From assembly GCA_044357055.1 (NCBI GenBank), contig JBIKVD010000002.1, positions 1 to 45,069 on the forward strand: a stretch of 45,069 nt of DNA, written 5' to 3'. The stretch comes from Oligoflexales bacterium. GTDB lineage: Bacteria; Bdellovibrionota_B; Oligoflexia; Oligoflexales; JBIKVD01. A program made the position numbers and the translations under genes. How positions within the stretch are numbered: the stretch's first letter is position 1; every line of letters starts with the position of its first letter. This document shows, piece after piece, positions 2,480-34,001 of the stretch. The notes below the pieces were generated by a model, which saw only the letters and a list, made by a program, of their open reading frames with translations, made no database searches and was not told the DNA's origin.

Positions 2480-2692
2480 CCTAAGCTGTATGGGGCCCCC
2501 CTAAACTCGAAGTTGGCACATAAATTGCTAAAATATCTGCTGCAAATTGAGCGTCTGTTATATTCAGGTAAATTTGACTTTACTATCTGCCTTTTATAGA
2601 GTGGCATCTTAAACAAATTTTGCTCGCGCTGACATTCCAAGCTGATCTCAGGAAGTCTCAAACGATGCGCAAACCTTTTTGGGTGGGGACTT

Positions 2693-5161: not shown

Positions 5162-5246
5162 TTCATTGATTTTGTTAGGAATATTTCTTGCCTCAACGCA
5201 AGAAATTCACGTATGTTCAGAATCCTTCTCCTGTGTCTTCTCTTAA

Positions 5247-5320
<74 letters not shown>

Positions 5321-5343
5321 CTCTTTTCGCGATGTTACAGGTT

Positions 5344-5391
5344 TGTTGGTTAGATTTTGAATCTTCGTGTTGGTTAGATTTCTAACCAACA
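5344..5391. repeat. TGTTGGTTAGA motif, two direct copies and one inverted; candidate integrase arm-type sites
   Basis: tgttggttagattt at 5344-5357 and 5368-5381; perfect palindrome TGTTGGTTAGA-TT-TCTAACCAACA at 5368-5391. Confidence 0.7.
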
Positions 5392-5404
5392 GTAAGTACC
5401 TGAA

Positions 5405-5734
5405 ATGAATGTTATAGATCCCCGCCTAAAATTAATCGCTAAATACCAAGCCAATAATCTCCGATTACTGTCAGAAATGATGAACAATGACTATTGGTCA
5501 AAAGCCAGGTTTTTGGAAGAAATTGACGAGCATTACAGGATGCTATTGAATAACTGGCCAAGGATGTCAAAGACTCGGAGGCTGGAGCAATGGCGGTTAG
5601 CGAAAAAATGGGCAAAGGAAGAGAACATTACCACCCCCAGACGGAATTCAGAATTGAACCGCCTTCCGGACGATCTAAGTCATTTAGGATTAGATTCAAC
5701 TCACCGGCTACCCAGGGCAAATGGGTACCAATAA
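5405..5734 (+). CDS. Hypothetical basic protein overlapping the 5' end of the integrase
   Basis: 109-aa ATG ORF between the att site and the integrase; overlaps it by ~130-145 nt; no recognised motif. Confidence 0.35.
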   Translation: MNVIDPRLKLIAKYQANNLRLLSEMMNNDYWSKARFLEEIDEHYRMLLNNWPRMSKTRRLEQWRLAKKWAKEENITTPRRNSELNRLPDDLSHLGLDSTHRLPRANGYQ

Positions 5735-6756
5735 ACCTACCTGAAATCGATATTGCCAATGACCATTTTAAGTCAGGTTTGGTTTCCAAAGAACACACAA
5801 AAGAGAAATTAAAATTAATCCTCCAAGGGCTCTACGCTGAACGCGATAAAGTTAAGAAAAAGCCCGAATTTCAATCCAAAAACATCGAACTCGTTAAGAA
5901 ACTTTGGGAAGAAAAGTATACCCGAAGACGCCTTAAAACCCTTAAAAGACCAAATGAATCATACAACGATTATATGAGAGCTGCGGAAGCAGTTGGCATG
6001 ATGCCACTAGACACCTGCAATCTTGAAGATCTAGAAGATCATTTACACGACACTCTTGGCGAAAAGCCAACCATTCTACGTCGGCGAATCATATGGATTA
6101 ACTCAATATTGATGTGGCTTGGGCGACCTAAAATTCCCCAATTGAAAAGGATGCCTCGTAAGTCGGTACGCTATCTTACTGAGGATGAGTTTTTCCAAGT
6201 TTACACTCATCTTAATGGCCATCCGTGGGATAGAACATTAGCTAAAATTGCATTTTATACCGGAATGCGAGTAGGAGAGATTTTTGGCCTTTATTCAAAA
6301 GACGTTCTCAAGAATCAGGCTTTGGTCGTTAATCAAATGAAAGCAAAAAGGGAAAATCATAAAGATGACACGACTAAAACTGACTCAGAACGCAGAGTCA
6401 TTATTCTTGACGAAGTAGCGGAAGATCTGAAGAACTGGGTGCAGGTTTCTAATGAAGAACGAGTAAAAATTAGGGATCGCCATTATGCAGATGTCATATC
6501 TAACGCCTGTCTGAAAGCTTTTCCCAAAGATGAGCAAAAACATCTCAATTTTCGCGATCTAAGGCACTGTTGTGCAATTTATATGTTACAAAACGGAATA
6601 CCGATCCATCTAGTGGCCCAACAACTCGGGAATGCTGTAGAAGTTACTGAACGATTTTACTCTGGCTTTATTTTGAAAGAAGAATCTATTGAGTTTATGC
6701 AAATGTTAATTTCAAAAGCCAAGGAAAAGAAAATATCCGAAGATTCTAATCGATAG
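5590..6756 (+). CDS. Tyrosine recombinase / integrase
   Basis: Box I TGMRVGEIFGL, catalytic Lys (TTKT), box II NFRDLRH...VAQQLGN...TERFY; adjacent to a tRNA. Confidence 0.92.
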   Translation: MAVSEKMGKGREHYHPQTEFRIEPPSGRSKSFRIRFNSPATQGKWVPINLPEIDIANDHFKSGLVSKEHTKEKLKLILQGLYAERDKVKKKPEFQSKNIELVKKLWEEKYTRRRLKTLKRPNESYNDYMRAAEAVGMMPLDTCNLEDLEDHLHDTLGEKPTILRRRIIWINSILMWLGRPKIPQLKRMPRKSVRYLTEDEFFQVYTHLNGHPWDRTLAKIAFYTGMRVGEIFGLYSKDVLKNQALVVNQMKAKRENHKDDTTKTDSERRVIILDEVAEDLKNWVQVSNEERVKIRDRHYADVISNACLKAFPKDEQKHLNFRDLRHCCAIYMLQNGIPIHLVAQQLGNAVEVTERFYSGFILKEESIEFMQMLISKAKEKKISEDSNR

Positions 6757-9512: not shown

Positions 9513-11168
9513 TCAATAAGTAAACGGCATATCCATCTCACGTACGACGTTGGTAGCGCAATGGACTTCGCCCAAGTTGAAATGATAGATGGCATCATCA
9601 ACAAAGTGAATCGTTTCCGGACTTCCAAGATGCGGACTCAATGTATTGGAGACCATCTCTCTGAGCCGGCTTACCCAAGGATCCGGAAAAATAACATGAT
9701 TTCTGAGCACTAACGCATTCGTCATGCCTGGCAAGTGAGCTGAATCTTTGCTCCACAAACCGAAATTTTTGACGCCATCAACATAAAAGTTTGGCAAAAA
9801 GGCCTGTGGTATCATTTCAACTTGTTTGCAAGTGGCGACATCCATGACTTTTTTAACAGATTCCTGCACCGAGCGCTCGGCGTATAGATTTCTGTAAATA
9901 TAGAATTTTGCAAAAGAGTCCGTTTTACGAATGACGCCCATAACTGTGTCAAAGGGTAGATATTCGACGTCCGATAAGCCGGTGATAGCTTTTGTAGCTT
10001 TAGTGAAGTCGTAATCATCCAAATTTGCAGACACACCAGGAGCAGCACCACCGTCTTTTCTGAAGTAATTGAGCGCAGTAATAAGGTCTGCCTTAGTCAG
10101 CAAAGTTTCGATCGCGATATTCTTTCCTGTTTTATCTCGGCCAATAGGAACCGTTGCTAGTTCCTCTGCGAACATCTGATATTCCGCGTTACTTGCTTCC
10201 TCTAAAATCACTTTCAAGGCCATTAGAGTGCTGCCCCAAACTAAGGTAGAGTCGCAAGCTTTGTTCGATGGAATATAAGTCATGTATTCATCGACGTGCC
10301 CAACCGCTAACCAATCACTCTCAATTTTAATTGCGTCTGGATTTCCTTTTTCCACGAAAATATCATAAAGAGGTGACGGAAGATTCGCGGCAGAATAGGT
10401 TGGATCATCAACTGAGTCTCCTATATAAACGATCCCGTTCGGAGTCACTTCGATGTTGCCACCGTATTGAGCCGAGTTTCCCGTATCCATCCCAAGCTTA
10501 ACAAGCGGAATGCCCAAAAGATCACGATAAACTTCGGGACTATATACATCACGATTTTCATTCCTAAAGGTGTCAACTACCAGATATACAGGATCTGCCA
10601 GACCAGTAATTTTTGCGGACGCAAATTCGCCGAAATCTTGAATCCATAAGTCCTCGCCATCAGGTTTATCCGTTTCCATCGGTGCCAGACTCAACTTTCC
10701 GTTGTAATTTGGGTCTTCAATGCTCAAAGTTGCGTCAATCGTTTTCACAAGCAAATCATAGTCGGCTCTCCGACCTTTATTAAACATAACAATAAGAGTG
10801 ATCTCCTGATTATATAGATCATCTCTCGTAATAGTTGGCTTTCCGATGGTTGGTTCGAGATTCTCGGAAACGTTGATTTCGTGAATCTCTTTATAAAGGT
10901 CGATCACAAAACGCCAATTGTTAAATGAATCAGTGCTTTTCCCAAAAAGATAAACATTGACTCCTTTTGGCACGTAAGTGTTTGGCAGTACGGTAATCTC
11001 TTCAACCAGCGTTTCATCGATTGTTTTATCCCAACCTGGCACCCCTATATTTGAATCGGGGCCAGGATTTAAGTCTTTGGTTTGGGAAGAAGAGTTAATT
11101 CCTCCACATCCTGAAAATGCCCCTACCAATAGCAATGTGGGCAGTAAAATACCTAGTTTAAAAATCAT
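9513..11168 (-). CDS. Protein-arginine deiminase (PAD) family lipoprotein
   Basis: PAD catalytic motifs WIQD, GGNIEVTP, WLAVGHVDE and GEVHCATN; lipobox FSGC; GGAGG ribosome-binding site before ATG 11168. Confidence 0.88.
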   Translation of the reverse strand: MIFKLGILLPTLLLVGAFSGCGGINSSSQTKDLNPGPDSNIGVPGWDKTIDETLVEEITVLPNTYVPKGVNVYLFGKSTDSFNNWRFVIDLYKEIHEINVSENLEPTIGKPTITRDDLYNQEITLIVMFNKGRRADYDLLVKTIDATLSIEDPNYNGKLSLAPMETDKPDGEDLWIQDFGEFASAKITGLADPVYLVVDTFRNENRDVYSPEVYRDLLGIPLVKLGMDTGNSAQYGGNIEVTPNGIVYIGDSVDDPTYSAANLPSPLYDIFVEKGNPDAIKIESDWLAVGHVDEYMTYIPSNKACDSTLVWGSTLMALKVILEEASNAEYQMFAEELATVPIGRDKTGKNIAIETLLTKADLITALNYFRKDGGAAPGVSANLDDYDFTKATKAITGLSDVEYLPFDTVMGVIRKTDSFAKFYIYRNLYAERSVQESVKKVMDVATCKQVEMIPQAFLPNFYVDGVKNFGLWSKDSAHLPGMTNALVLRNHVIFPDPWVSRLREMVSNTLSPHLGSPETIHFVDDAIYHFNLGEVHCATNVVREMDMPFTY

Positions 11169-11447
11169 ATTTACCTCCAAAATTCTTATTTCTGTTCGTT
11201 ACGTTATTACAAATACTCCTAAATTACAATTGCGATTGCCTCAATAAAAAGGAAGTAATCTTTCCTTTTGCTCAAGATTCTAAATTTTAAAAATTAGGAA
11301 AATTAATCGCGCCTGAGCACATCATCAATAACGATGCTCGACACGAAAATTAGAGGATTCGGAATGCCATAAATAAGCAAAGAGAATTGCAGTATGTACT
11401 GCGGCGGCATTTTTACAGGGGTATGCCAGGCATCAATCATCAGTATG

Positions 11448-12848
11448 TTATTTGACGTTAAAGTCAATTTTCATTGCTGGTGCATTGATGGGAGCTGTTT
11501 TAATGAGTCCAGTGTTGTCTTTTGCTTCTATATAAAAAGAAATACGTGCATTGCGAGGCAAATCAGTCATTTTATAACTATAGGTATTTCCGCCACTGTG
11601 CTCCATTTCAAGATTTGACTGTGGACTGCCATTTACCTCCCAAACAATACTGGGAGTCTCTGCTAAGTCTCGATCCAGGGCAGTAATCACTTCCACTTCA
11701 ATTTCGGCTTCCAGACTTGCAATATTGTCTAAATTGACATGCGGAAAGATAAAGGTTGTATCTTTGCGAAGCAAATTCCTTGCTCGACAGTGGACTGAAT
11801 CACCCCATGACGTGCCATCAGCATCGACCCCAACGATACGGTAGCCGGGCAATGAATTTTGATAAATTTGTTTTGCAGTATTATCGGATGAATCTCCGTA
11901 GAGTGGAAAATACAGGGTTTTGTTACTGATAAACGCATTAATATAGGCACGATAATCTTCCCCAAAGAAACCTTTTTTTACCATGGGCAAACGATAAATT
12001 TTATAAGGTGTCCCATATGGACTGATCAAAGATTTAATTTTCGCGACAAATGCTTCAGAATCTTGCCGATATTTAGAACCTGATGGAAATTCTCCTATGA
12101 CCCATGTGTCTGGCGCCACCAATTTGCCATAAGTATCAATGTGCTCAATCGAGATCCCAGGTCCCAGCTTTGAAGTCGTATAACGCTCAATGCCTAAATA
12201 ATCTAACATTCGGGCGTCAATTTCTTGTCTGGAAAGCTTTGAATTTTCAGAGTAAACAAGAGTTGATGAAAACGCGTTTGCTAACCCATCCGGATAGTAA
12301 TTACCGCCTGCGTGAACCAATCCTGTTTTAAAAAGTGGTACTTTCAATGACTCGGCAACGAATTCTGGGACTTTATCATCAAGGGGCCTTGGTCGATTGT
12401 AAATCGTGTCAACAACTCCAAATTGACCATTGCCGTCAAGAATAAACCATGGTCCATAGTCCCTGACCCAGATGCTATCAGTCGGAACGATACTGAAGGA
12501 AATATTGGCAGAAGGTATCTTGTTTTGATTCAACCAGTTTGACCACCAACTACGATCTGAGCTGCTATCGGCAAGGATAGTAACAGGACCATTACTTTGC
12601 AAAGCTCTGATAAACGACGGATTTGTCCATAAAGTAAAAACTGATTCTGCTTCTTCCCATTCACCTAAAGAATGGATCGGATATTGAGGCATAGGGCTGC
12701 CCGCTATGCGTTGCTCAGGTGAAGCAAACGCTTTTACCATTTCTTCCGGAGCGAGACCAATTGGTAGATTTTTTTGATCAGGCGTTACTGCTAGGGCAGC
12801 ACCCGCGAAGAAAAAAAGTGGAATGATCGAAAATAAATTTCTTGTCAT
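11448..12848 (-). CDS. Secreted agmatine deiminase / Porphyromonas-type peptidylarginine deiminase family protein with C-terminal beta-rich (Ig-like) domain
   Basis: GEWEE, DSIWVRDYGP, GGNY, HIDT, YIN, GDSVHC; signal peptide MTRNLFSIIPLFFFAGAALA; AGGAGG before ATG 12848. Confidence 0.88.
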   Translation of the reverse strand: MTRNLFSIIPLFFFAGAALAVTPDQKNLPIGLAPEEMVKAFASPEQRIAGSPMPQYPIHSLGEWEEAESVFTLWTNPSFIRALQSNGPVTILADSSSDRSWWSNWLNQNKIPSANISFSIVPTDSIWVRDYGPWFILDGNGQFGVVDTIYNRPRPLDDKVPEFVAESLKVPLFKTGLVHAGGNYYPDGLANAFSSTLVYSENSKLSRQEIDARMLDYLGIERYTTSKLGPGISIEHIDTYGKLVAPDTWVIGEFPSGSKYRQDSEAFVAKIKSLISPYGTPYKIYRLPMVKKGFFGEDYRAYINAFISNKTLYFPLYGDSSDNTAKQIYQNSLPGYRIVGVDADGTSWGDSVHCRARNLLRKDTTFIFPHVNLDNIASLEAEIEVEVITALDRDLAETPSIVWEVNGSPQSNLEMEHSGGNTYSYKMTDLPRNARISFYIEAKDNTGLIKTAPINAPAMKIDFNVK

Positions 12849-12980
12849 TGTAGCCTCCTGGATAATCTTTAGGTCTGAAGCAACTTTAGCTAACCCATGA
12901 AAATACATCAAATCAATTGATACATTTGACTACAACATCACACTTCAAGAACGTTTAGGACCATCAATTTAAAAATTGCC

Positions 12981-21387: not shown

Positions 21388-23997
21388 TTATTTTTTGAAA
21401 TAAATGTCTTTGCCTTCTGTCAATGATTTCAAGTTTTGCTTCAGTGCAAATTGCAACCGATCAAGTGCTTTATAGGGACTGTAGTTGAGAGCATAATCTT
21501 TCGATGTATCCTTCATATGGGACACTGAGACTTCCTTAGCGACGTTCTCAAGTAGCATCGATCTCGCGCGCTTTTCATATTCACCCTTTGGCAGCTTATT
21601 AAGCTCTGCCTGCTGTTTCTCCGATAAATCTGGAAAATTGACCGAATTGATAAAGATTTCGTTATCGGCTCGCCCCCTCGACAATGAGACATAAAATCTT
21701 TCCCGGTCCATCAAGTTTCCGTCCACTACCACAAAAGCTTTATCAACCGTCATACTCTGAGACTTATTAGACGTGACGGCATAGCCGTATTTGAAGCCGG
21801 AAAAGGACGCTGGATTAAATTTAATGAGAGTCCCGTCATCCTTCTTAACTGAGATGAAAATAGAATTTACATCGACGACTTCGACAATATCTGAATTGAT
21901 GATACCCTTTGCTTTTCTATTTTCGGTGAAAATTAATCTGTCACCCCTTGCTACCTCAAACTCTGCCCTACCCCTTTTAAAAAAGTAACTTTTACCAAGT
22001 GCACCTTCAGCTTTGAGGTGAGACCGAATTTTCTCATTTAGTCTTCCCACGACGAGATTTGTTGTTGCCAGGATGAGGCTTGTTTTTTGCGGATTTGAGC
22101 TCCTAAACTCCTTCCATCTCTTAAGGATGCTTGCTTCAGCTTCATTTTGGTCTGTTTCGACGTGGAGATAGCCCTTTTTTTCGTAAAATTGGAAAGTTTC
22201 ATCGACCTTCCCTTCCCTGATTCCAAGAATGGTCTTTGCTTCTTCAGGGTCGGACTGACGCCTGACCGTTGAAAGTTCTGATCCATCAAATTTATTCTGG
22301 AGGGTACCAAACATTTGCCCTGCCTCGACAGGTTGAACTTGTTTTGTATCCCCGATAAGCAGCACTTTACAGCCCATTTTTTCGGCCTTGCGAAAGATTC
22401 TGTTGTAATACTTCGAGGCAAGCATCGCAGCCTCATCGACTACGAGAATTTGTTTTCGATTTTGTACACTATTCTTATAAAGAAAGGAGTGAACTGTGGT
22501 GGCATTTATCTTCACATCCCGCTCAATTGTCTGTGCAGCTTTGTGGGTGGGAGCGAGTGCTGTAAGCTTGTGTCCGGTCTGCTCATATATCTTTTCAAGA
22601 TATTGTAGTGCAAATGTTTTTCCACTACCAGCCACCCCTGAGATAAGCGAAATCCCGTCGGTATTTGTGGCCGTCGCAACCACAGTTTGGAGTTGATCTG
22701 GTGAAAGCTTCACCTCTTTACCTAGTAGCTTTGAATGTCGCTCGTTTTCCTCTTTAATAATCTTTTGCACCACATGAAGTTTTATACTGTGGCGATTTTC
22801 ACCGATTCGCCGTTTAAACATCCGGACAGTTTCATCCTCCTCCTGATACTTCCATTTTGTTGTTAGCACGTTATCATCATAGGTTTTTTGAAGGCGTATG
22901 AGATCACTCATCATGCCATGAAAGCTTGATTGAAAAATGTCTCCCGTTGACAGTTTTCCAATCGATCTTTCCGCCATTTTTCTCAGATAGACATAGGCTG
23001 GAAATGTCGATCTTTGGTCTATAATTTCACGCCCTGTGGCCTTGATAAGGTTTTTTCTGAATCGTTTTGATTGCCCTTTGTAGATGAACGTGGAACTGCG
23101 CATGCCTTCAATTTTAGCACTGCTTAGGCCCATTTCCTTGTGTTCCCGGCGCCAAGTTTCGAAATCGACTCGGCTATCTTTGTCGTATTTATTTCTTGTT
23201 ATGAAATTGTATTTTTGCTTAGCAAAGATTGATGCAGAAGATCTGTCGAGGCCTGATTGCTCGGCGAGTTTTTCAATTTCTTTGGACCGGGTTGAGCGAA
23301 AATCGATTAACTTTTGAGACACACCCTTAATTTCAAAACTGTGTTTTGTACGTCTCAGTTCAAATCCGGCGGTCTTAAGCCGGTGCGCAAGTTCTGCTTT
23401 ATAGAGAGCCCCCGCTGCCATTTTTCGTTTATAGTAGTGCGAATATTGCAGAGTTCGAAACTTGCTATCCTCGCAATATGCTACGTTAAACATGATGGCA
23501 TGGGTATGGAGTTGAGGATCACCGGCTCTTGAGGAAGAGTGCTGGAAAAGCGCAAAAATATTCTCAGCCTTCACCTTGATTTTGCCGCCTTTACCAGCTC
23601 TTGAGTGCCCGGATTGATGTTCCAGGTAATCAAGTGCTACCTTTGCCGCCTCGTTATGCGCATTTTCTACTATTTCCTTTGTTTTCTCATTTGCCGTTGC
23701 CCAGACAATCGAAACACTTTTGGGGGCCGAAAATGTGAAATCTACGCCCATTGCATGCTCTTCGCCTGCGTTTTGGACAAGCGCAGTCCCGCTTGGACTA
23801 AAGCCTTGCGCAAGGCGTTCCATAGCAAGCGGCATAACTGTAGCACCATTCAAAGAGCTGCCTGGAAGGCTTGGATCTGATAGCGCATGTGCTCCTCCAC
23901 CGTACCAAACGCCAGGCTTTTCTCCGCCTTCAATGCAGTATTCGGTATAATACTTTACGGCTTCTTTTGAATGCGCCAGTGGCTGAGCAGTAATCAA
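21388..23997 (-). CDS. MOBF relaxase-helicase (TrwC/TraI-like)
   Basis: N-terminal YY, DFTFSAPKSVS, HSSSRAGDPQLHTH; helicase motifs GVAGSGKT, VVDEAAM, YGYAVT..KSQSMT, YVSLSR. Confidence 0.95.
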   Translation of the reverse strand: MITAQPLAHSKEAVKYYTEYCIEGGEKPGVWYGGGAHALSDPSLPGSSLNGATVMPLAMERLAQGFSPSGTALVQNAGEEHAMGVDFTFSAPKSVSIVWATANEKTKEIVENAHNEAAKVALDYLEHQSGHSRAGKGGKIKVKAENIFALFQHSSSRAGDPQLHTHAIMFNVAYCEDSKFRTLQYSHYYKRKMAAGALYKAELAHRLKTAGFELRRTKHSFEIKGVSQKLIDFRSTRSKEIEKLAEQSGLDRSSASIFAKQKYNFITRNKYDKDSRVDFETWRREHKEMGLSSAKIEGMRSSTFIYKGQSKRFRKNLIKATGREIIDQRSTFPAYVYLRKMAERSIGKLSTGDIFQSSFHGMMSDLIRLQKTYDDNVLTTKWKYQEEDETVRMFKRRIGENRHSIKLHVVQKIIKEENERHSKLLGKEVKLSPDQLQTVVATATNTDGISLISGVAGSGKTFALQYLEKIYEQTGHKLTALAPTHKAAQTIERDVKINATTVHSFLYKNSVQNRKQILVVDEAAMLASKYYNRIFRKAEKMGCKVLLIGDTKQVQPVEAGQMFGTLQNKFDGSELSTVRRQSDPEEAKTILGIREGKVDETFQFYEKKGYLHVETDQNEAEASILKRWKEFRSSNPQKTSLILATTNLVVGRLNEKIRSHLKAEGALGKSYFFKRGRAEFEVARGDRLIFTENRKAKGIINSDIVEVVDVNSIFISVKKDDGTLIKFNPASFSGFKYGYAVTSNKSQSMTVDKAFVVVDGNLMDRERFYVSLSRGRADNEIFINSVNFPDLSEKQQAELNKLPKGEYEKRARSMLLENVAKEVSVSHMKDTSKDYALNYSPYKALDRLQFALKQNLKSLTEGKDIYFKK

Positions 23998-25550
23998 ATT
24001 TTGTCCTCAAGGCGAGTTGCTACCCACTTCAGCGCACTTTCAAAGCGCTCCTTTTGCTCTGGTTTTGCGGGACCTTTTCCTAGGTCAGGAACCCCATGCT
24101 GGTCTCTATGTAGAGGAAGGACTTGCGCCCACCTTCTGTGACGAATGCGAAGCTTTACCGGCATGAATGATAGGCTTGAAAGATAAAACCACCCGTCTCG
24201 CAAAGTTTGAATTTCAAATGGCATGACGACTGGCTTTGTTGCCACTGTTTCAGAATAGGAACCACTCGCTCCACTCCTCCCGGAGCTGCGGTTTTTCCTT
24301 AGGACTTCCGAGGACCCGAGCAGTTCAGACATTTCATTTGCATGCTTCGGTTCCTTAATTCTGAAGATGAATTTTGTGCCGATTTGGCCAAGCATCGCCG
24401 AAGCCTCATCGTGGCCATAAAGCTTTCTAAAATAGCTTTCCGATTGGTATGCGAGAATACAGCGCGCCGAGTATTTACGAAGCCGATCCAGAGATTTTCC
24501 AAGATTTTCGATCTTTCCGATCGTCGACACTTCATCGATGATAATGTTAATTTTTGTGTGCTTTTTCGAAGGATTTCTCGCAAAACAGCCAATGATTGCT
24601 AGGTTAAACCAGATCTTAAGAAGTGGTGACATGACGCCAAAGTCATCATCCTTTACCGGAATGAAAATCCAATTTTTGTCATCATTTTGTGTCCAGTCGT
24701 AAATACTAAACGCCGCCTCGTCTCCACGAGCCTTGGCCCAATAGTTCAAATCCTTAAGGAAGCTCAGTTCCATCAGTGCATGCGCAATAATACCTGCAGA
24801 TTGCGGAGTTTTTTTATCTCCGGTGATCGACTTTGCTGTCTCACTTAGGGAATCGAAAATGCTTCCGGCACCCCCTTGAACTAGATCTCTTAGTTCATCT
24901 AGTGAACTGCAGGAATCAATCAGCTGTCTTAGAACAATTCGTGCGCCATTCCACCAAAATTTGTCATGCTCATGGCCTGAGGGCACAAGAAATTCTGCAA
25001 TCTGGGCACTCGAAATTCGCTCTCCGCCCTGTCCCTCCTGATAAGGGTCCCAAAGCCTTGAGCGTTTGTCATAGAGACTTAAAATGTGATCACTTTCGCG
25101 ACCGAGTTCTGAGCAAATTTCGCCACCGACATCAAGAACAATGCACTTTTCTCCCGCAAGTCTTGCCCTTTCCAATAGGGCCTTAATTTGTGTCGATTTG
25201 CCAGCACCTGTGGCGCCAATGAAGGCGACATGGCGATCAAGCACATATTCCCAAATCGAGACTTTTGACTTTCCTCCTGAACATTCAAACGGGACTCCTT
25301 TCATCGCTTTAAGACTCAGTGGCTTGCCCAAATCTTCTTCAATTTCTTTCCGGTATGCGTCGGATTCAGCTTCAATTGCTTTTTGAAACCTTCTAGCCTC
25401 GACAAGCTTTGAACCTCGCAGAAACAGATCCGTATTTTTAGGCTTTTTGTTGTCACGGCTGGCAAGTAACGTGTAGGTCCCGTAGATAAAAATTGCGCAA
25501 ATACATGGCAAAAGAAGGCCGTATGGCCCTACATAATCTAGTAGTGACAT
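23994..25550 (-). CDS. Type IV coupling protein (TrwB/TraD-like)
   Basis: N-terminal transmembrane segment, Walker A GATGAGKS, IIIDEV, RKY...LAYQS; overlaps the relaxase start. Confidence 0.92.
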   Translation of the reverse strand: MSLLDYVGPYGLLLPCICAIFIYGTYTLLASRDNKKPKNTDLFLRGSKLVEARRFQKAIEAESDAYRKEIEEDLGKPLSLKAMKGVPFECSGGKSKVSIWEYVLDRHVAFIGATGAGKSTQIKALLERARLAGEKCIVLDVGGEICSELGRESDHILSLYDKRSRLWDPYQEGQGGERISSAQIAEFLVPSGHEHDKFWWNGARIVLRQLIDSCSSLDELRDLVQGGAGSIFDSLSETAKSITGDKKTPQSAGIIAHALMELSFLKDLNYWAKARGDEAAFSIYDWTQNDDKNWIFIPVKDDDFGVMSPLLKIWFNLAIIGCFARNPSKKHTKINIIIDEVSTIGKIENLGKSLDRLRKYSARCILAYQSESYFRKLYGHDEASAMLGQIGTKFIFRIKEPKHANEMSELLGSSEVLRKNRSSGRSGASGSYSETVATKPVVMPFEIQTLRDGWFYLSSLSFMPVKLRIRHRRWAQVLPLHRDQHGVPDLGKGPAKPEQKERFESALKWVATRLEDKI

Positions 25551-25917: not shown

Positions 25918-26346
25918 CTCTCCTTTGCATTGTGCAAATCGCGAAGTTGCACGTAGCGTGCCTAGAAAAGTGCCCCCCCGAGTTACCCATTTTGTAATAA
26001 GGCATTTGGCTAGCAGTTTTCGGCTCCTGGAACCCATTCCTGTAATAAAGCGTAGCGACCCAATGCACTAGTGTTTTCCCATGATTTCCTGCATTTAGGC
26101 TCTGAACTAAACACCAAAGGTGTCTCAGGTGTGCCGGAGGTCGACCTCATGGGTCGACCGTAGCAGCCCGCAAAAATCGGAGAGACAAAGTCTCTCTCAA
26201 AGAATCCATCTCAGGGCCAAAAATTGAACCGGGCGGATCAAGATTTGAACCGAGGGCATAGAGGCCTGAGACGGAAATCAAGCGCTTAGGACCGGGTACG
26301 GCCCTTGCAATGCGGGGAGTGTCACTACAATGGAAAGGAAAATTGA
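25918..26346 (+). promoter_or_regulatory. Probable oriT with candidate nic site at 26132/26133
   Basis: Divergent intergenic region next to the relaxase operon. ACACC-AAA-GGTGT hairpin followed by CTCAGGTGT^G; further inverted repeats at 26139-26159 and 26180-26196. Confidence 0.65.
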
Positions 26347-26691
26347 ATGAAAGTGAGTGAGGCAAAAACCGGAACGCTACTTCGGAAAGGGCGACCGAAA
26401 ACAGTCGTGATCAGGCTCAAAGAAAGCATTCTTTCTGAACTTGAGGCAAAGAGGATAGATCTATCGAAGCGCTATAAGGCTGAAGTTAGCAGAGATGACC
26501 TCATAAACTCGATCATCTTCAATTCAAGGCTTGAGATCAAAAACCTAGTAAAAGAGGAATCCAAGGTCGTAAAAGTCAAACTTATGGCTACGATGCTTGA
26601 AAAACTGGAGACGCTCTCACAGGGTTCAAGCGTCGACGAGAAAAAGATTCTTATGCAAATGATTGAGCGTGAGATGAACCGAGTTTACTGA
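26347..26691 (+). CDS. Small putative RHH DNA-binding protein
   Basis: GRPKTVVIRLKESILSELE...VSRDDLINSII; AAGGA ribosome-binding site; divergent from the relaxase operon. Confidence 0.6.
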   Translation: MKVSEAKTGTLLRKGRPKTVVIRLKESILSELEAKRIDLSKRYKAEVSRDDLINSIIFNSRLEIKNLVKEESKVVKVKLMATMLEKLETLSQGSSVDEKKILMQMIEREMNRVY

Positions 26692-27425
26692 AGCCACTTG
26701 TTGACATCGATCATTAGCGACTTCAGGTCGGCTGGGAGATCTTTAAAGACTTTTGAGTAAGCGGTCCATCTTGTCTGCATGTCGGAGCTTACCCATTCTA
26801 CGAGTAACTTGGGCTCTATCGAACGCTCGGACAAGATAGCCGATAGCTTTCTTCGGTCGATTAATCGACCTGACTGGGCGATACGCCAAAGATCGTCGTA
26901 GTCCTTGAGCCGAGTGTTGCCGGATACAAATCGCCAAGCTGCCGCGAGCTTATCTGCAATAATGTTCTCAATGGAGGCTGCTACGATGTCGGGTCTATCT
27001 CCAACAGGTGAGGGAATTGTGGTGGTGTCGACTGGCGCCTTATAGACAATATCAATGTCAAATCGGTTCGCTGCACCGCCCTCTGCTACAAACCGGATCG
27101 TAACCGCAGCCCCTACTTCGCCAACTTCTTTAAATTTTTCGACCGAGAATTTGAGAGCGGGATCAGGATTTTCGCAAACTCGCTCGATAAGCCTTCTCAC
27201 TTCGTCGTGAGTACCGCTACTGAGGGTGCTAAAATCCAAATCTACCGTCGGACGAGGAGTCTTGATGTAAACCCACAGGAGGTTACCACCCTTTAGAACG
27301 AAGTCTTTGGATTCCAGGTTAAGTCGTTGAACGAAGGAGAATATTATGAATTTGAAAAATGCTTGGGGACCGTGTAGACCTTGTTCTCGTTTCCATTTCC
27401 CTGCTCTGGTTATCAATTTACTCAT
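26685..27425 (-). CDS. abiEii: AbiEii-family nucleotidyltransferase toxin (type IV toxin-antitoxin)
   Basis: FVLKGG, RPTVDLDF, ENIIADKL, TRLKDYDDL. Confidence 0.9.
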   Translation of the reverse strand: MSKLITRAGKWKREQGLHGPQAFFKFIIFSFVQRLNLESKDFVLKGGNLLWVYIKTPRPTVDLDFSTLSSGTHDEVRRLIERVCENPDPALKFSVEKFKEVGEVGAAVTIRFVAEGGAANRFDIDIVYKAPVDTTTIPSPVGDRPDIVAASIENIIADKLAAAWRFVSGNTRLKDYDDLWRIAQSGRLIDRRKLSAILSERSIEPKLLVEWVSSDMQTRWTAYSKVFKDLPADLKSLMIDVNKWLQ

Positions 27426-28011
27426 CAGCTAGCTCCTGAGCGAGGTGGAATACGACTTTCGTGCCAAGTTTCTCATCGTAAAACCGCAATTTGTCGATAT
27501 TTGGCTTTCGGTCCTTAAGCTTGAGGTATCGTTTTAAAGCTTTATAAAACAAGGGACCGGCTTTGCTTCGCAGGTATGCATCCGAAAGGGAGCGTTCCAT
27601 GTCATATATCCGAATCACATGAGAGTGATAATGCATCTCAGTAATTCCAACGAGCCTATGGTCTGGAACCCTGTGGGCGTTTACAAGTTTATTGCGTATT
27701 GACGTCGCCCTGGGAATGTCGACGTCAATTTTATGAATTGCTTCATCCGTCAGCTCATAAATCGAGAGCGCTGTGATATTTGAAATCACAGCATTAGGAA
27801 AGTATTTCGACACTGCGAGCACTGAGGATATGAAGGGATCCAGTTTTATCGTGCTGTAATAGCCACTGCCAAGCGCAAAGATCTCTCCCTGATCTGCAAG
27901 TCTTCCCAGAACACTTGTCTGCGACACATAGGGTTCGAGCTCGCCTGCGGACATGACCAGCTCGTTACCTAGAGTCTCTATCAAAAGCTTCTTGTTAGTC
28001 ATCTTAGCCAT
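27418..28011 (-). CDS. abiEi: AbiEi-family antitoxin / transcriptional regulator
   Basis: N-terminal wHTH ending in G.Y, AVISNITALSIYELTD, IRIYDMERSLSD; overlaps the toxin gene. Confidence 0.88.
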   Translation of the reverse strand: MAKMTNKKLLIETLGNELVMSAGELEPYVSQTSVLGRLADQGEIFALGSGYYSTIKLDPFISSVLAVSKYFPNAVISNITALSIYELTDEAIHKIDVDIPRATSIRNKLVNAHRVPDHRLVGITEMHYHSHVIRIYDMERSLSDAYLRSKAGPLFYKALKRYLKLKDRKPNIDKLRFYDEKLGTKVVFHLAQELADE

Positions 28012-28020
28012 TCCCCTATT

Positions 28021-28096
28021 TTACCACACTATCGGTATTTTGTGGTAATAAATTTACATAATTTTTGTTACCACATCAGTTCATTATTGTGGTAAC
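28021..28096. promoter_or_regulatory. Two TTACCACA-N12-TGTGGTAA inverted repeats; probable AbiEi operators
   Basis: IR1 at 28021-28048 and IR2 at 28067-28096, directly upstream of abiEi. Confidence 0.85.
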
Positions 28097-28125: not shown

Positions 28126-28668
28126 TCAGCCAAATACCTGGTCTCGAAGGGATCCAGAACGCTCTGCCCTAGAAACCAAGGTCTTAAAGCTTTGACCCGG
28201 TGGAAGCACTTTTGAGCCAAACTTCTGCCGGATTTCGTCCATCGAAAAAGGAACCACGTACTTTCTTCGAGCCTTCTGGTGCTCAGGCCGGAAATACCAC
28301 ATATGTTTTCTTGGAGCCCAGTCGTAGCCAGCCTCCTTCAAGACTGCCTTATGGCGTTCGGTTGATCCTGAAATCCAAATCCAGACTCCGCATATTTCAA
28401 TCGTGATCCCCTCTAAGACCGCCACGGCCCGAACTGCCTTCTCAAGGGACGATGTGATGCCCAAATCGCCCAGCGAATTCTTAAATGGGCCAGAAAACCT
28501 TTTTAAGACCTCATAGGCATTCTCCACAATCTGCATCATGTGTATCCCGACCGGACTAAAGCTTGGGTCATACTCAAAAGCCTTTTTTTGATATGCCGCC
28601 CTGATCTCTGGGGCAGTGACGTGATCAGAGTGTAGACCCAAGATTTGAAGTGCTTCAGAAATTTGCAT
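28126..28668 (-). CDS. J-domain-like protein (HPD replaced by YDP) with C-terminal aromatic domain
   Basis: EALQILGL...EIRAAYQKKAFEYDP...MQIVENAYEVLK, then IEICGVWIWISG...LKEAGYDWAPRKHMWY; AAGGAG before ATG 28668. Confidence 0.75.
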   Translation of the reverse strand: MQISEALQILGLHSDHVTAPEIRAAYQKKAFEYDPSFSPVGIHMMQIVENAYEVLKRFSGPFKNSLGDLGITSSLEKAVRAVAVLEGITIEICGVWIWISGSTERHKAVLKEAGYDWAPRKHMWYFRPEHQKARRKYVVPFSMDEIRQKFGSKVLPPGQSFKTLVSRAERSGSLRDQVFG

Positions 28669-28693
28669 AGTTATTCTCCTTAATTTAGTTTTT

Positions 28694-29047
28694 TTAGTAG
28701 TCAAATTCGGATTCGAAATCGCTTAAGTATTCAAAAAGTCCCTGCTCGATGGTAAGAGCCTCGAAATAGAGCCGATCAAACACCCGAGCTAGTCTTTCTT
28801 GCTTCTCTTTTAGGACCTCTGGCTCGCCTGAAAGCGCTTCATGCATCGCCCTTTCCAGGTCGATAAATTTTTGCTCAATCTCACTTCTCGTCGCACCCAT
28901 GTCCTCTAGGGCTTCTGTCGCTTCATGCACACGCATTGTTTCTCCCCTCTCCCGTGTTAATTGCCAAAAAGCCATTCTCTTGAGTTGGAGCCCCTGCCCG
29001 CCGGCGAGGCATTCATGCAAATTTCTGTGAGTTGACAATTGGTTCAT
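28694..29047 (-). CDS. Hypothetical acidic helical protein
   Basis: Strong AAGGAGG site before ATG 29047 (alternative start 28937); Glu-rich. Confidence 0.6.
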   Translation of the reverse strand: MNQLSTHRNLHECLAGGQGLQLKRMAFWQLTRERGETMRVHEATEALEDMGATRSEIEQKFIDLERAMHEALSGEPEVLKEKQERLARVFDRLYFEALTIEQGLFEYLSDFESEFDY

Positions 29048-29075
29048 CCTAGCTCCTCCTTTCTCATTCTCCGTC

Positions 29076-29346
29076 GCCGTATGCCCCTGAGCATTCGTGA
29101 GCCAGACGGCATAGAAACGAGTGGCAAGGCCGAGGACGAAGGACGAGTGCATTTCAGCCTTGCGCGAGTTTCGCCGGCTGGCAGAATGCGAGGAAAAGGG
29201 CAAGGTGATCGGGGAATGAATGGGAGGAGCGGGGTATCAACCGGTCGACGAATTTCGTGACATGCTTAAATCTGGGGGGCTGGCGCCAGGAGTATTCTTC
29301 CCCCCTTTAGTGATCGAAAGGGGGGCCAGGGGGGTATGAGAAGAAA
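29076..29346. repeat. Dispersed direct repeat, copy 1, containing a ~100-nt imperfect hairpin (Frpo-like)
   Basis: Colinear with 33805-34001; last 60 bp match at 59/60. Confidence 0.92.
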
Positions 29347-29348
29347 AA

Positions 29349-30296
29349 TTAAATTGTTAGACGCCAGCCAAAGCTATCAATTCCATGGCTAAGGCCTTCT
29401 TTTAGTGTCAAACCACCGAGGTCCGGTTTATTCATTTTAGCTTTGTAGGTTTCGAACTCATCTTGATTTGCAAAAAACAACATTTCATCACATGAGGGAC
29501 CGCCAGAGACAATAGTCTCGCTACTATCGCCTTCAAGTATCTTGTTTCCGTCGATCCTAATGACCAGATCACTTTGAAGAAGAGCAGATTTCGCAGCTAT
29601 CGTGATAGGTTTACCAAACATTGCCGAAATACCTAAAGCATCAATTGCACATCGTGCGTAGGCTGGCTTTTTGCCGTCAATTGTCACGATGACACCGAGG
29701 TTATCACTCGCGAATGGCCAAAGCCATTTTATACGGTCCGAATCTTTGTAAAATATTCCCGGTCTATTTTCTTTTAAATTCGCCCTAATATCCTCAGCGC
29801 CTAGTGAACTAAATCCATCGATTTTTCTAACTTCCTGATGGATTTCTTCAATGGTTGGAGCGCGACCAAGCTCTGGCCATAGGAGGTATATAGTTTTGAT
29901 TTCAGTTTTCAAAAGTGGAGGGAGGGCTCGATATTCAGCTTCAACCACCTTCGGATCGACACAGTTAGTTTGTTTGAAAGCAAAAACTGAACTTACAACT
30001 AATAATCCACCTACAGCGAGACCCACGAGCGATGATTTAAGTGGTTTACCTTGCCTATTAACGTTTCGTATAACAACGAACGAAAAAAATGCTGCCAATA
30101 TGAGCAGTGGTATTTTAAACATAGGTAGCCATATCGAGAGCGTACCTAGTCCGATACTTGCTAAAAAAGCCGCAAGTGGGAAAGCAAGACCACTGCATGC
30201 AGCCCCACAAAATCCGGTCAGCCCTAAGAGCCCAATGGACCCACCAGCGAAAGAGCCTACGATCTTGTTATTTTTTAGCCAAGCTTTTAGACCCAT
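29349..30296 (-). CDS. Membrane-anchored organomercurial lyase (MerB)-like fusion protein
   Basis: Hydrophobic N-terminus with FCGAAC; GRAPTIEEI; WPFA, YARCAIDALG, SCDEMLFF match the MerB Cys/Asp/Cys pattern. Confidence 0.75.
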   Translation of the reverse strand: MGLKAWLKNNKIVGSFAGGSIGLLGLTGFCGAACSGLAFPLAAFLASIGLGTLSIWLPMFKIPLLILAAFFSFVVIRNVNRQGKPLKSSLVGLAVGGLLVVSSVFAFKQTNCVDPKVVEAEYRALPPLLKTEIKTIYLLWPELGRAPTIEEIHQEVRKIDGFSSLGAEDIRANLKENRPGIFYKDSDRIKWLWPFASDNLGVIVTIDGKKPAYARCAIDALGISAMFGKPITIAAKSALLQSDLVIRIDGNKILEGDSSETIVSGGPSCDEMLFFANQDEFETYKAKMNKPDLGGLTLKEGLSHGIDSFGWRLTI

Positions 30297-33565: not shown

Positions 33566-33804
33566 GTATTGGTCACAGCGCTTGCTAATCTTGTACATTA
33601 CCAAGAATCCACCTCGAATCAGAATTCAAGACTGCGACACCTGATGACAAGCTACTGGGGAATTTAAGTATCCCGGGAGTAAAAGATCCTCGATGCCTAT
33701 GACCAGATTACGTGTGTAGTACACGCCTATTAAACCGAAGTGTTTGTATACTTCGCAGTTTTTTGGAAAAAGACTAGCCAATCGAAAAGTTTTGTCATTT
33801 CATC

Positions 33805-34001
33805 CGCCCTATGTCCCCTGAGTATTCGTGAGCCAGACCTCGTAGAAAAGGACAAGGCGATCGGGGAATGAAAGGAAGGAGCGGTGCGCTAACCGGCCGG
33901 CGAATTTCGCAACATGCCAAAATTTTGGGGGGGGCTTGCGTCAGGAGTATTCTTCCCCCTTTTAGTGATCGAAAGGGGGGCCAGGGGGGTATGAGAAGAA
34001 A
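33805..34001. repeat. Dispersed direct repeat, copy 2 (internal ~80-bp deletion)
   Basis: Matches 29076-29117, then resumes at about 29195-29346. Confidence 0.92.

What the first reader, a model, noticed from the sequence alone, without database searches (positions are those of the whole stretch)
29091..29189. Frpo-like single-stranded-DNA promoter hairpin pointing into leading-region genes
Seen: a ~100-nt imperfect stem on the + strand, with pairings GCATTC/GAATGC, GCCAG/CTGGC, CGGC/GCCG, GAAAC/GTTTC and GCAAGGC/GCCTTGC. Its 3' arm reads TTGCGC (29160)-16 nt-CAGAAT (29182) with an extended -10 TG. If the + strand folds, polymerase would use the 5' arm as template and run leftward into the strong AAGGAGG start at 29047 and the J-domain gene. 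Known: this is the geometry of Frpo/ssi promoters, which fire on the incoming transferred strand. It agrees with the separately inferred nic polarity, in which the + strand is transferred and this side enters first.
Basis: partly seen in the sequence, partly recalled or inferred. Interest (0 to 1): 0.72.

Follow-up and report, generated by a model that had tools for sequence, protein, structure and literature searches.

The report
Hairpin promoter for incoming single-stranded DNA
A 180-base DNA hairpin in a chromosome-integrated conjugative element probably works as a promoter only while the element enters a new cell as a single strand, and its tip matches the F plasmid's known promoters of this kind.

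Summary
The hairpin is real and larger than reported. 29091-29189 is the core of a 182-nt imperfect hairpin (29052-29233, + strand). It is the most stable 200-nt ssDNA fold of 4488 windows on both strands, and 8 kcal/mol more stable than its complement.

Its apex (29124-29163) matches a module shared by Enterobacterales leading-region hairpins and by F Frpo1. A covariance model built without the window, and with Frpo1 as one row, finds only this site (E 0.0018, rough). An earlier model built from 15 plasmid elements, with no F sequence, recovers F Frpo1 and Frpo2 as its top two hits in the F leading region.

The 3' arm carries TTGCGC, a 16-nt spacer and TGgCAGAAT. The TTG and the extended -10 TG sit where the family conserves them. 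Gene order mirrors F: relaxase and coupling protein, then oriT, then leading genes that point back toward oriT.

I read it as a compact, divergent ssDNA promoter of the Frpo (ssp1) type, driving ORF117 and a J-domain gene. Transfer polarity and ssDNA-dependent transcription are inferred, not shown. No relatives of this element were found, so the hairpin itself has no covariation test. A second copy (33791-34001) lacks 79 nt, including the promoter.

This scan has noted Frpo-like hairpins on other DNA (51 notes); none resembles this sequence.

The parts
29052..29233 (+). Full imperfect hairpin of the + strand (proposed transferred strand)
   Evidence: ssDNA fold; rank 1 of 4488 windows; -45.9 kcal/mol against -37.8 for the complement
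29091..29189 (+).
   Evidence: -24.5 kcal/mol, z -2.97, 1 of 200 shuffles as good
29124..29163 (+). Apex module: GCAAGGCC, a 15-nt cap, unpaired GTGCATTTCA, then GCCTTGC
   Evidence: Best hit of both covariance models (R1 16.4 bits, E 0.016; R2 21.5 bits, E 0.0018). The family pattern matches once in the window and in 0 of 100 shuffles
29160..29165 (+). -35-like hexamer TTGCGC on the 3' arm; TTGC is paired with 29124-29127
   Evidence: in alignment A7 the TTG is kept in 22 of 23 rows (F Frpo1 has CTG)
29179..29187 (+). Extended -10 TGgCAGAAT on the 3' arm, paired with 29093-29104; template-arm bulges at 29097 and 29099-29100
   Evidence: pair list; TG conserved in at least 90% of rows of A7 at the matching distance
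29083..29089 (-). Predicted start of the leftward transcript (template bases opposite about 29193-29195)
   Evidence: Inferred from the -10 position and the pair list; not measured
28694..29061 (-). ORF117 (ATG at 29047) with AAGGAGG at 29061-29055; an orphan
   Evidence: the only match in the protein collection is itself
28126..28704 (-). J-domain protein gene, overlapping the end of ORF117
   Evidence: Pfam DnaJ E 1.3e-4, below the curated cut-off; tblastn relatives on 2694 plasmid records, 2210 typed conjugative
26685..28011 (-). AbiEii nucleotidyltransferase toxin gene and the upstream partner ORF, same direction
   Evidence: PF08843 E 7.7e-22
26111..26133 (+). Candidate nic region: ACACC-aaa-GGTGT hairpin, 9 nt (CTCAGGTGT), then G
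   Evidence: the architecture matches the R388 nic site as described in PMC4176350; inferred
21388..25550 (-). TrwC-type relaxase and TrwB-type coupling protein, transcribed away from oriT
   Evidence: PF08751 2e-66 and PF10412 6e-68
33791..34001 (+). Second copy of the repeat, lacking 79 nt (apex, -35, -10)
   Evidence: the 29113->29193 joint; no significant fold (z 0.22)
29234..29346 (+). Right-hand part of the repeat, with a perfect 9-bp stem CCCCCCTTT/AAAGGGGGG; function unknown
   Evidence: 86% identity to 33845-34001

Best explanation
The 182-nt hairpin is a compact, divergent promoter of the Frpo (ssp1) type that works on single-stranded DNA. After the integrative conjugative element is nicked near 26132/26133, the + strand enters the recipient 5' end first. 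ORF117 and the J-domain gene therefore enter before the hairpin does. Once 29052-29233 has entered, it folds. Its 3' arm then presents a base-paired -35 (TTGCGC) and an extended -10 (TGgCAGAAT) opposite a bulged template arm. The host primary-sigma RNA polymerase binds and starts opposite about 29086. It transcribes leftward on the + strand through a roughly 39-nt leader carrying AAGGAGG, then ORF117 and the J-domain gene, and possibly the AbiE pair. Synthesis of the complementary strand removes the hairpin and switches the promoter off. Transcripts that read through from upstream would contain both arms and could mask the ribosome site. Like Frpo, the transcript may also prime complementary-strand synthesis. 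Shown here: the fold, its rank, its strand asymmetry, the apex kinship and the gene geometry. Inferred: which strand is transferred, binding of the polymerase, the start site and the shut-off.
For: (1) Fold. z is -4.73 with 0 of 100 shuffles as good. The site ranks 1 of 4488 windows on both strands.
(2) Strand asymmetry. The + strand folds at -45.9 against -37.8 kcal/mol for the complement. The element strand is the more stable one in 19 of 19 cases: the window, 15 plasmid elements, F Frpo1, F Frpo2 and the hairpin upstream of klcA in F.
(3) Kinship. A weak BLAST hit to the apex (E 6) fell in the leading region of an F-like plasmid, on the strand opposite to the genes and directly upstream of one. 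Searches seeded from that element and a relative found 18 and 116 plasmid records. In 14 of the 15 loci fetched, the element lies immediately 5' of a gene on the opposite strand. psiA or psiB is annotated in 8 of the 15.
(4) The family is structured: 14 of 27 consensus pairs show changes on both sides.
(5) Model R1, built from the 15 plasmid elements with no F sequence, finds F Frpo1 (E 1.2e-4) and Frpo2 (E 3.3e-4) as its top two hits in 16 kb of F. Its best hit in the window is the apex (E 0.016). The broader model R2 (23 rows; window excluded, F Frpo1 included) gives 21.5 bits, E 0.0018, with the next hit at E 0.39.
(6) The family pattern matches once in the window, in 0 of 100 shuffles, and in none of 130 other genomes of the phylum.
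(7) In the 23-row alignment, the TTG after the apex is kept in 22 rows (F Frpo1 has CTG), and a TG 19-21 nt further on is at least 90% conserved. Many members read TGcTACAAA, TGcTACTTT or TGgTATCAG there. The window reads TTGCGC, 13 nt, TGgCAGAAT.
(8) The gene order mirrors F. There is a nic-like hairpin plus 9 nt plus a purine on the + strand.
(9) Host RpoD regions 2-4 are close to those of solved proteobacterial sigma-70 proteins.
(10) One relative of the apex module lies on the coding strand of an inovirus contig, just after its Zot-family gene. From general knowledge, the coding strand is the packaged strand and the RNA-polymerase-primed minus-strand origin lies in that region.
Against: Only the 40-nt apex aligns to the family. 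BLAST finds no Frpo homology. The model E-values are modest and roughly calibrated, and R1 gave two other hits of similar E (0.019 and 0.038).

No relative of this element was found, so the hairpin itself has no covariation test. The scans were: 60 same-order genomes, 130 genomes of the phylum, genome contigs twice and metagenome contigs twice. Contigs from four other lake-water runs carry site 1 with 0 differences.

The hexamers are only fair: -35 matches 3 of 6 and -10 matches 4 of 6.

The second copy has lost the core and has no gene behind it.

Transfer polarity is inferred.

ORF117 is an orphan, and none of the downstream genes is a classical anti-defence gene.

Five of the 9 viral loci with the apex module are near-identical; one of them was shown to be tailed-phage DNA. 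In two of them a + strand ORF follows to the right, so the module may also serve as an ordinary duplex promoter there. Two further loci lie next to IS256-type transposase genes.

In one of the 15 plasmid loci (L018) the neighbouring genes are on the same strand as the element.

I could not see the figures that map the -35, -10 and start sites of the validated promoters (supplementary figures of PMC12672017 and PMC9849209). The match of my promoter call to validated starts is therefore unchecked.

pESBL ssDNA promoters were poorly induced in Sinorhizobium meliloti (passage in PMC12672017), so function across phyla is not assured.
Confidence: 0.6

Rival explanations
1. The hairpin does act on the incoming single strand, but mainly as a priming site or pause site for complementary-strand synthesis (an ssi/sso-type origin, or a roadblock like ssp2 of F), not as the promoter of ORF117.
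For: Frpo transcripts are reported to prime complementary-strand synthesis, and ssp2 stalls it (passages of bioRxiv 10.64898/2026.01.09.698686). A relative of the apex module sits where an inovirus minus-strand origin is expected. ICEBs1 has a single-strand origin (PMC4595007; listing and start of abstract only).
Against: The hairpin base lies 5 nt from a start codon with a strong ribosome site, as in 14 of the 15 plasmid relatives. That placement is what a promoter needs; a primer site does not need it. The two roles are not exclusive.
Confidence: 0.12
2. The structure works at the RNA level. It forms in a transcript coming from upstream (for example from the promoter-like site at 29380-29353), masks the ribosome site of ORF117, and controls translation or RNA stability.
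For: The outer stem pairs the ribosome-site region with 29222-29230. A - strand promoter-like match lies at 29380-29353. The - strand also folds at -37.8 kcal/mol.
Against: The mRNA-sense strand folds 8.1 kcal/mol less well than the + strand, and the same bias holds in 19 of 19 elements, including validated ssDNA promoters. No T-run follows the hairpin, so it is not an intrinsic terminator. No Rfam family matches. This may be a second layer of control rather than a rival.
Confidence: 0.1
3. It is a selfish or decaying palindromic repeat (like a miniature inverted-repeat element) with no present function, and the promoter-like hexamers are there by chance.
For: There are two copies in direct orientation 4.7 kb apart. 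One has a 79-nt internal deletion between short direct repeats. Relatives of the apex lie beside IS256-type transposase genes in two viral contigs.
Against: There are only 2 copies in the 4.37-Mb assembly, both inside the element. Plasmid relatives keep a fixed orientation and position in front of leading genes, with compensatory changes. The conserved positions coincide with promoter elements.
Confidence: 0.1
4. TTGCGC-16-CAGAAT is an ordinary duplex promoter that fires rightward into the conserved 29190-29346 segment, producing a small RNA or an RNA antisense to the MerB-like gene.
For: In two tailed-phage-type contigs with the same module, a + strand ORF follows on the right. The right-hand part of the repeat is conserved between the two copies, with a run of about 40 identical bases.
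Against: The simple promoter scan did not list it, because its -35 matches only 3 of 6. Copy 2 keeps the right-hand segment but has lost this promoter. There is no + strand gene or terminator to the right. All plasmid relatives have their gene on the other side.
Confidence: 0.05

Closest known systems
Frpo1/Frpo2 of plasmid F and ssi1-3 of ColIb-P9/pESBL (class 1, 'ssp1' ssDNA promoters)
   Same: It is a hairpin on the transferred strand, 5' of leading genes that point toward oriT. The promoter elements lie on the 3' arm. The element occurs as repeated copies about 5 kb apart. The apex holds GTGCATTTCA followed by CC(C)T(T)G. The element strand is more stable than its complement (passages of PMC9849209).
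   Different: It is 182 nt, against roughly 315 nt in F. It has no A/T-rich tract at the apex. It shows no BLAST-level homology; only the 40-nt apex aligns. It lies in a tRNA-integrated conjugative element of a small, non-enterobacterial phylum. Its outer stem covers the ribosome site.
'Frpo* 2/4' low-certainty candidates of Samuel et al. 2024 (PMC11541004, Supplementary Table 2) and their Enterobacterales plasmid relatives (L008-L022)
   Same: These are the closest sequences. They share TGAG[C/T]ATTCG at the 5' base, the apex GGCAAGG..GTGCATTTCA.CCTTGC, TTGnnn then TG 19-21 nt on, and a position directly upstream of a start codon.
   Different: Their middle stems are 30-60 nt longer and unrelated in sequence. 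They are found only in Enterobacterales plasmids. None has been tested by experiment, as far as the passages I read show.
Class 2 ssDNA promoters (ssp2; upstream of klcA/ardA in pESBL and F)
   Same: By eye, the promoter arm CCCTTGCA..GCCCGGCTAAGATGGAGG of F resembles GCCTTGCG..GCCGGCTGGCAGAATGCGAGG in the window. Start sites in pESBL were mapped by 5' RACE (passages of PMC12672017).
   Different: I ran no model-based test. The apex module is absent from the F class 2 hairpin. That hairpin is about 240 nt long.
Minus-strand origin of filamentous phages and single-strand origins of rolling-circle plasmids and ICEBs1
   Same: These are hairpins on an incoming single strand that recruit host RNA polymerase. 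One inovirus contig (L024) carries the same apex module on its coding strand after the Zot-family gene.
   Different: Those elements make a primer, not an mRNA. The Ff origin itself was not compared here; that knowledge is recalled.

Membership tests
Frpo / ssp1 (class 1 ssDNA promoters) | Lies in the leading region, on the strand that is the template of the downstream genes, which point toward oriT | tested here: met
   The relaxase and coupling protein are on the - strand and point away from 26040-26350. The four genes from 29047 to 26685 are on the - strand and point toward it. The hairpin strand is their template. F shows the same layout, mirrored.
Frpo / ssp1 (class 1 ssDNA promoters) | The hairpin-bearing strand is the transferred strand | not testable with these tools
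   Inferred from gene order and from a nic-like ACACC-aaa-GGTGT plus 9 nt plus G on the + strand. The likeness to the F nic sequence GGTGT|GG is recalled.
Frpo / ssp1 (class 1 ssDNA promoters) | Long imperfect stem-loop, stable as ssDNA, that rebuilds -35 and -10 boxes in the stem | tested here: met
   z -4.73, rank 1 of 4488; TTGC and TGgCAGAAT are base-paired, with template-arm bulges
Frpo / ssp1 (class 1 ssDNA promoters) | Sequence homology to known Frpo/ssi (BLAST E < 1e-6, the criterion of Samuel et al. 2024) | tested here: not met
   I could not run BLAST against the five known sequences, because they are not sequences I may type. BLAST of the window against 72,556 plasmids gave nothing at 1e-5. 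At E <= 10 it gave only a 42-nt apex hit.
Frpo / ssp1 (class 1 ssDNA promoters) | Profile-level similarity to the family | tested here: inconclusive
   Only the apex aligns: R1 E 0.016, R2 E 0.0018. R1, which holds no F sequence, finds Frpo1 and Frpo2 at 1.2e-4 and 3.3e-4.
Frpo / ssp1 (class 1 ssDNA promoters) | Transcription from ssDNA but not from duplex DNA, with early transient expression in transconjugants | not testable with these tools
   No run listed as holding this stretch is on record as RNA.
Miniature inverted-repeat or REP-type repeat | Many dispersed copies in the genome | tested here: not met
   2 copies, both in the element, in a 4.37-Mb assembly that is 83% complete; no model hit elsewhere at E <= 1
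Intrinsic terminator | G+C-rich stem followed by a T-run | tested here: not met
   The terminator scan lists nothing at 29050-29350 on either strand.
Any Rfam RNA family | Match at the gathering score | tested here: not met
   The only hit in the window is a tRNA. Permissive scans of 28950-29400 gave only chance-level hits.

The most novel reading that the evidence does not exclude
The apex module is CAAGG, a mini-hairpin, unpaired GTKCATTTCA, then CCTTG, followed by TG 19-21 nt further on. It may be a portable device that recruits RNA polymerase to single-stranded DNA in many phyla. It would be shared by class 1 Frpo promoters of enterobacterial plasmids, by this conjugative element of a distant phylum and by at least one inovirus. 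If so, leading-region promoters and filamentous-phage minus-strand origins belong to one superfamily, with a defined motif that mutagenesis and structural work can test.
Probability: 0.3. Interest if true: 0.8.

Novelty: new variant of a known kind. Interest (0 to 1): 0.62.

Why it matters
In the papers I read, promoters that work on single-stranded DNA have been shown by experiment only in F and IncI1 plasmids of enterobacteria. Here the design is half the size and sits in a chromosome-integrated element of a distant freshwater bacterium, yet it keeps the same tip sequence. That points to the part of the hairpin the polymerase probably needs. It also gives a short, testable minimal element, and suggests that early expression from the incoming strand is a general feature of conjugative elements, not a peculiarity of enterobacterial plasmids.

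Tried and rejected
Searches for relatives of this element all came back empty:
- ORF117 has no homologue but itself.
- The coupling protein's nearest relatives are 38% identical, and its peptide scan of genome contigs confirmed nothing.
- Exact DNA patterns from the repeat found nothing in genome contigs or metagenome contigs.
- None of 60 same-order genomes has a DNA match.
- The model search of the window's own genome at E <= 1 found nothing.

Sequencing runs: no RNA holder is listed. Contigs of four lake-water DNA runs carry site 1 unchanged, so they give no variation to test.

Model R2 found nothing upstream of J-domain gene homologues on two plasmids. The intergenic region before one of them shows no significant fold (z -1.05).

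The attC and terminator readings were dropped. No integron integrase is nearby, there are only two copies, and no T-run follows the hairpin.

I did not type the Frpo and candidate sequences printed in the supplement of PMC11541004 into any tool. I compared them by eye, and through stored plasmid loci that carry near-identical copies.

An earlier-findings look-up by sequence found no look-alike.

Full report
SETTING. The window is one contig of a metagenome-assembled genome (505 contigs, 83% complete). A primary sigma factor gene (2693-5161) is followed by a tRNA (5247-5320) and a tyrosine integrase (5590-6756). Next come metal-efflux and other cargo genes, then a TrwC-type relaxase (21388-23997, -) and a TrwB-type coupling protein (23994-25550, -). 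A 300-bp non-coding stretch rich in inverted repeats follows (26040-26350), then four - strand genes. These are an AbiEii toxin gene with its partner (26685-28011), a J-domain protein gene (28126-28704) and a 117-codon orphan (28694-29047). The finding lies next, followed by more cargo and, from 35203, type IV secretion genes on the + strand. This is an integrative conjugative element.

THE OBSERVATION. Folding 29048-29350 shows that this is only the core. The stem runs from 29052 to 29233: -63.9 kcal/mol, z -4.73, 0 of 100 shuffles as good. I scanned the whole window on both strands with 200-nt windows (4488 in all). The window 29041-29240(+) is the most stable, both in raw energy (-45.5) and after correction for GC (z -4.66). 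The next distinct site is the presumed oriT. The + strand folds 8.1 kcal/mol better than its complement (-45.9 against -37.8).

In the fold, TTGC of TTGCGC (29160-29165) pairs with 29124-27. TG (29179-80) and CAGAAT (29182-87) pair with 29093-29104, opposite template-arm bulges at 29097 and 29099-29100. The outermost helix pairs the complement of the ribosome site (29052-29060) with 29222-29230.

A SECOND COPY. The hairpin lies in a repeat of about 290 bp. A second copy at 33791-34001, in the same orientation, is 81-86% identical. That copy lacks 79 nt, corresponding to about 29113-29193 (joint). The missing stretch holds the apex and both promoter hexamers. Copy 2 shows no significant fold (z 0.22) and has no gene behind it. 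No further copy is in the assembly.

RELATIVES. The element itself is isolated. ORF117 matches only itself. The coupling protein's nearest relatives are 38% identical. DNA and pattern searches were all empty: 60 same-order genomes, genome contigs and metagenome contigs.

A permissive BLAST of the hairpin against 72,556 plasmids gave 12 weak hits. One (E 6, window 29122-29163) lay in the leading region of an F-like Erwiniaceae plasmid. It was intergenic, on the strand opposite to psiB, ssb and an anti-restriction gene, and directly upstream of a start codon. Searching with that element and with a diverged relative found 18 and 116 plasmid records, with 187 places for the second. All were in Enterobacterales, often with several copies per plasmid.

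I fetched 15 loci. In 14 of them the element lies on the strand opposite to a gene and immediately 5' of it. In 8 of them psiA or psiB is annotated nearby. The exception is an Arsenophonus plasmid. All 15 fold into hairpins of 150-190 nt. In the 15-row alignment, 14 of 27 consensus pairs show changes on both sides. Two of the loci are near-identical to the low-certainty candidates 'Frpo* 2' and 'Frpo* 4' in Supplementary Table 2 of Samuel et al. 2024 (the whole table was read).

LINK TO FRPO. I built a covariance model from the 15 plasmid elements, with no F sequence and without the window. In 16 kb of the F leading region its top two hits are Frpo1 (E 1.2e-4) and Frpo2 (E 3.3e-4), both on the transferred strand. 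The family is therefore a diverged branch of the class 1 promoters, which experiments have validated (passages of PMC9849209 and PMC12672017).

In the window, the model's best hit is the apex at 29124-29163 (16.4 bits, E 0.016), but two other hits have similar E. A pattern taken from the family, CAAGGSC, 9-20 nt, GTKCATTTCASCCTTG, matches the window once and matches 0 of 100 shuffles. It matches none of the 130 other genomes held for the phylum.

The same pattern matches 9 IMG/VR loci:
- One is an inovirus contig. The module lies on the coding strand just after the Zot-family gene.
- Two lie beside IS256-type transposase genes.
- One is unclassified.
- Five are near-identical to one another. 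One of these was shown to be tailed-phage DNA.

A second model built from 23 of these sequences (window excluded, F Frpo1 included) gives the window's apex 21.5 bits, E 0.0018, with the next hit at E 0.39. The E-values are roughly calibrated, and only the 40-nt apex aligns.

THE PROMOTER CALL. In the 23-row alignment, the TTG that follows the apex is kept in 22 rows (F Frpo1 has CTG). A TG 19-21 nt further on is at least 90% conserved. Many members read TGcTACAAA, TGcTACTTT, TGcTATTTT or TGgTATCAG at that point. The window reads TTGCGC, 13 nt, TGgCAGAAT. This is the same layout with a 16-nt spacer, and it keeps the A and the T of the -10 hexamer that matter most for sigma-70 (general knowledge).

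One sub-branch of the family, and F itself, read TGtGGTCT or TGtGGCTGT there, which is not like a -10. I could not see the figures that map the validated boxes and start sites, so this correspondence is unverified.

The host's RpoD regions 2-4 are close to those of solved proteobacterial sigma-70 proteins, so the consensus should apply.

The simple duplex-promoter scan finds no - strand promoter between the hairpin and the gene. It finds one at 29380-29353, inside the upstream gene.

POLARITY. In F, the leading genes and the tra genes share one strand. The leading genes point toward oriT and the tra genes point away from it. The window mirrors this layout.

Of three perfect inverted repeats in 26040-26350, one on the + strand (ACACC-aaa-GGTGT, then 9 nt, then G) has the architecture described for the R388 nic site. 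That architecture is 5-bp arms, a short loop, 9 nt, the cut, then a purine (passages of PMC4176350). This makes the + strand the likely transferred strand, with the hairpin about 3.1 kb from the nick. It is an inference.

STRAND ASYMMETRY. The element strand is more stable than its complement in all 19 cases computed. These are the window, the 15 plasmid elements, F Frpo1, F Frpo2 and the hairpin upstream of klcA in F. The differences range from -1.6 to -13.8 kcal/mol. This argues for function on that DNA strand rather than in the mRNA, whose sequence is that of the complement.

READING. The best explanation is a compact ssDNA promoter of the Frpo type, confidence about 0.6. Its transcript would start opposite about 29086 and carry only the 5' arm, which leaves the ribosome site free. 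Read-through RNA from upstream would carry both arms and could mask that site. A role in priming complementary-strand synthesis is compatible with this reading.

The rivals, with their weights, are:
- a site for priming or pausing only (0.12);
- control at the RNA level (0.10);
- a decaying palindromic repeat (0.10);
- a rightward duplex promoter (0.05).

The element fails the BLAST criterion for Frpo membership and is about half the size, so I file it as a new variant that works like Frpo. J-domain relatives occur on 2694 plasmid records, of which 2210 are typed conjugative. That fits an establishment role for the gene, but two of those plasmids show no such hairpin upstream.

PRIOR NOTES AND LITERATURE. 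This scan holds 51 notes on Frpo-like hairpins in at least 42 genomes, including other phyla and one conjugative element. None resembles this sequence. Full-text searches for the apex motif found only unrelated primers. Masai and Arai 1997, Nasim et al. 2004 and the work on the Ff minus-strand origin are cited from recall or through the papers above; I did not read them.

Noticed in passing
window 33791-34001: A second copy of the repeat has a 79-nt internal deletion between short direct repeats (GCCAGAC / GGCAGAA). The deletion removes the apex and both promoter hexamers. No gene with a ribosome site lies behind this copy.
   Followed up: partly
window 29234-29346 and 33886-34001: The right-hand part of the repeat is conserved, with a run of about 40 identical bases. 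It holds a perfect 9-bp stem CCCCCCTTT/AAAGGGGGG flanked by G-runs. It starts right after the stop codon of the upstream - strand gene at both sites. Its function is unknown.
   Followed up: partly
window 26040-26350: Candidate oriT. There are three perfect inverted repeats (26111-26123, 26140-26158, 26180-26196). This is the second most stable ssDNA fold of the window. A nic-like GGTGT|G lies at 26132/26133.
   Followed up: partly
L024 2441-2591 (-), an IMG/VR contig of 7.6 kb: An inovirus-like contig carries the same apex module in a 150-nt hairpin (-73.5 kcal/mol against -53.6 for the complement). The hairpin is on the coding strand, just after the Zot-family gene, where a minus-strand origin would be expected.
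   Followed up: partly
L028 2497-2551 and L031 658-704: The apex module lies about 20 nt beyond the stop codon of IS256-type (Mutator family) transposase genes, on the opposite strand. It may be part of the IS end or a preferred target.
   Followed up: no
L026, L027, L029, L030, L032 (IMG/VR): Five near-identical loci (one shown to be tailed-phage DNA) carry the module with a near-consensus TTGACG-17-TGcTACTTT. In two of them a + strand ORF of unknown family follows on the right, so the module may be an ordinary duplex promoter there.
   Followed up: partly
L018 1499-1664 (Arsenophonus plasmid): This family member has an almost perfectly paired stem of about 200 nt (-82.9 kcal/mol). Its neighbouring genes are on the same strand, unlike the other 14 loci.
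   Followed up: no
window 28126-28704: The J-domain protein has relatives on 2694 plasmid records, 82% of them typed conjugative. In the two loci inspected, the homologue lies at the head of a row of small genes in the same direction. This may be a widespread establishment gene that uses the host Hsp70.
   Followed up: partly
window 28021-28095: An inverted repeat with 32-nt arms (72% complementary) lies just upstream of the AbiE-partner gene. It is a likely operator for autoregulation.
   Followed up: no
window 623-6756: The element is integrated at a tRNA gene directly downstream of the host's rpoD. The 618-codon ORF before rpoD was not examined.
   Followed up: no
window 9513-12911: Two arginine deiminase-family genes (PAD and PAD_porph) lie among the cargo, next to metal-efflux genes.
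   Followed up: no
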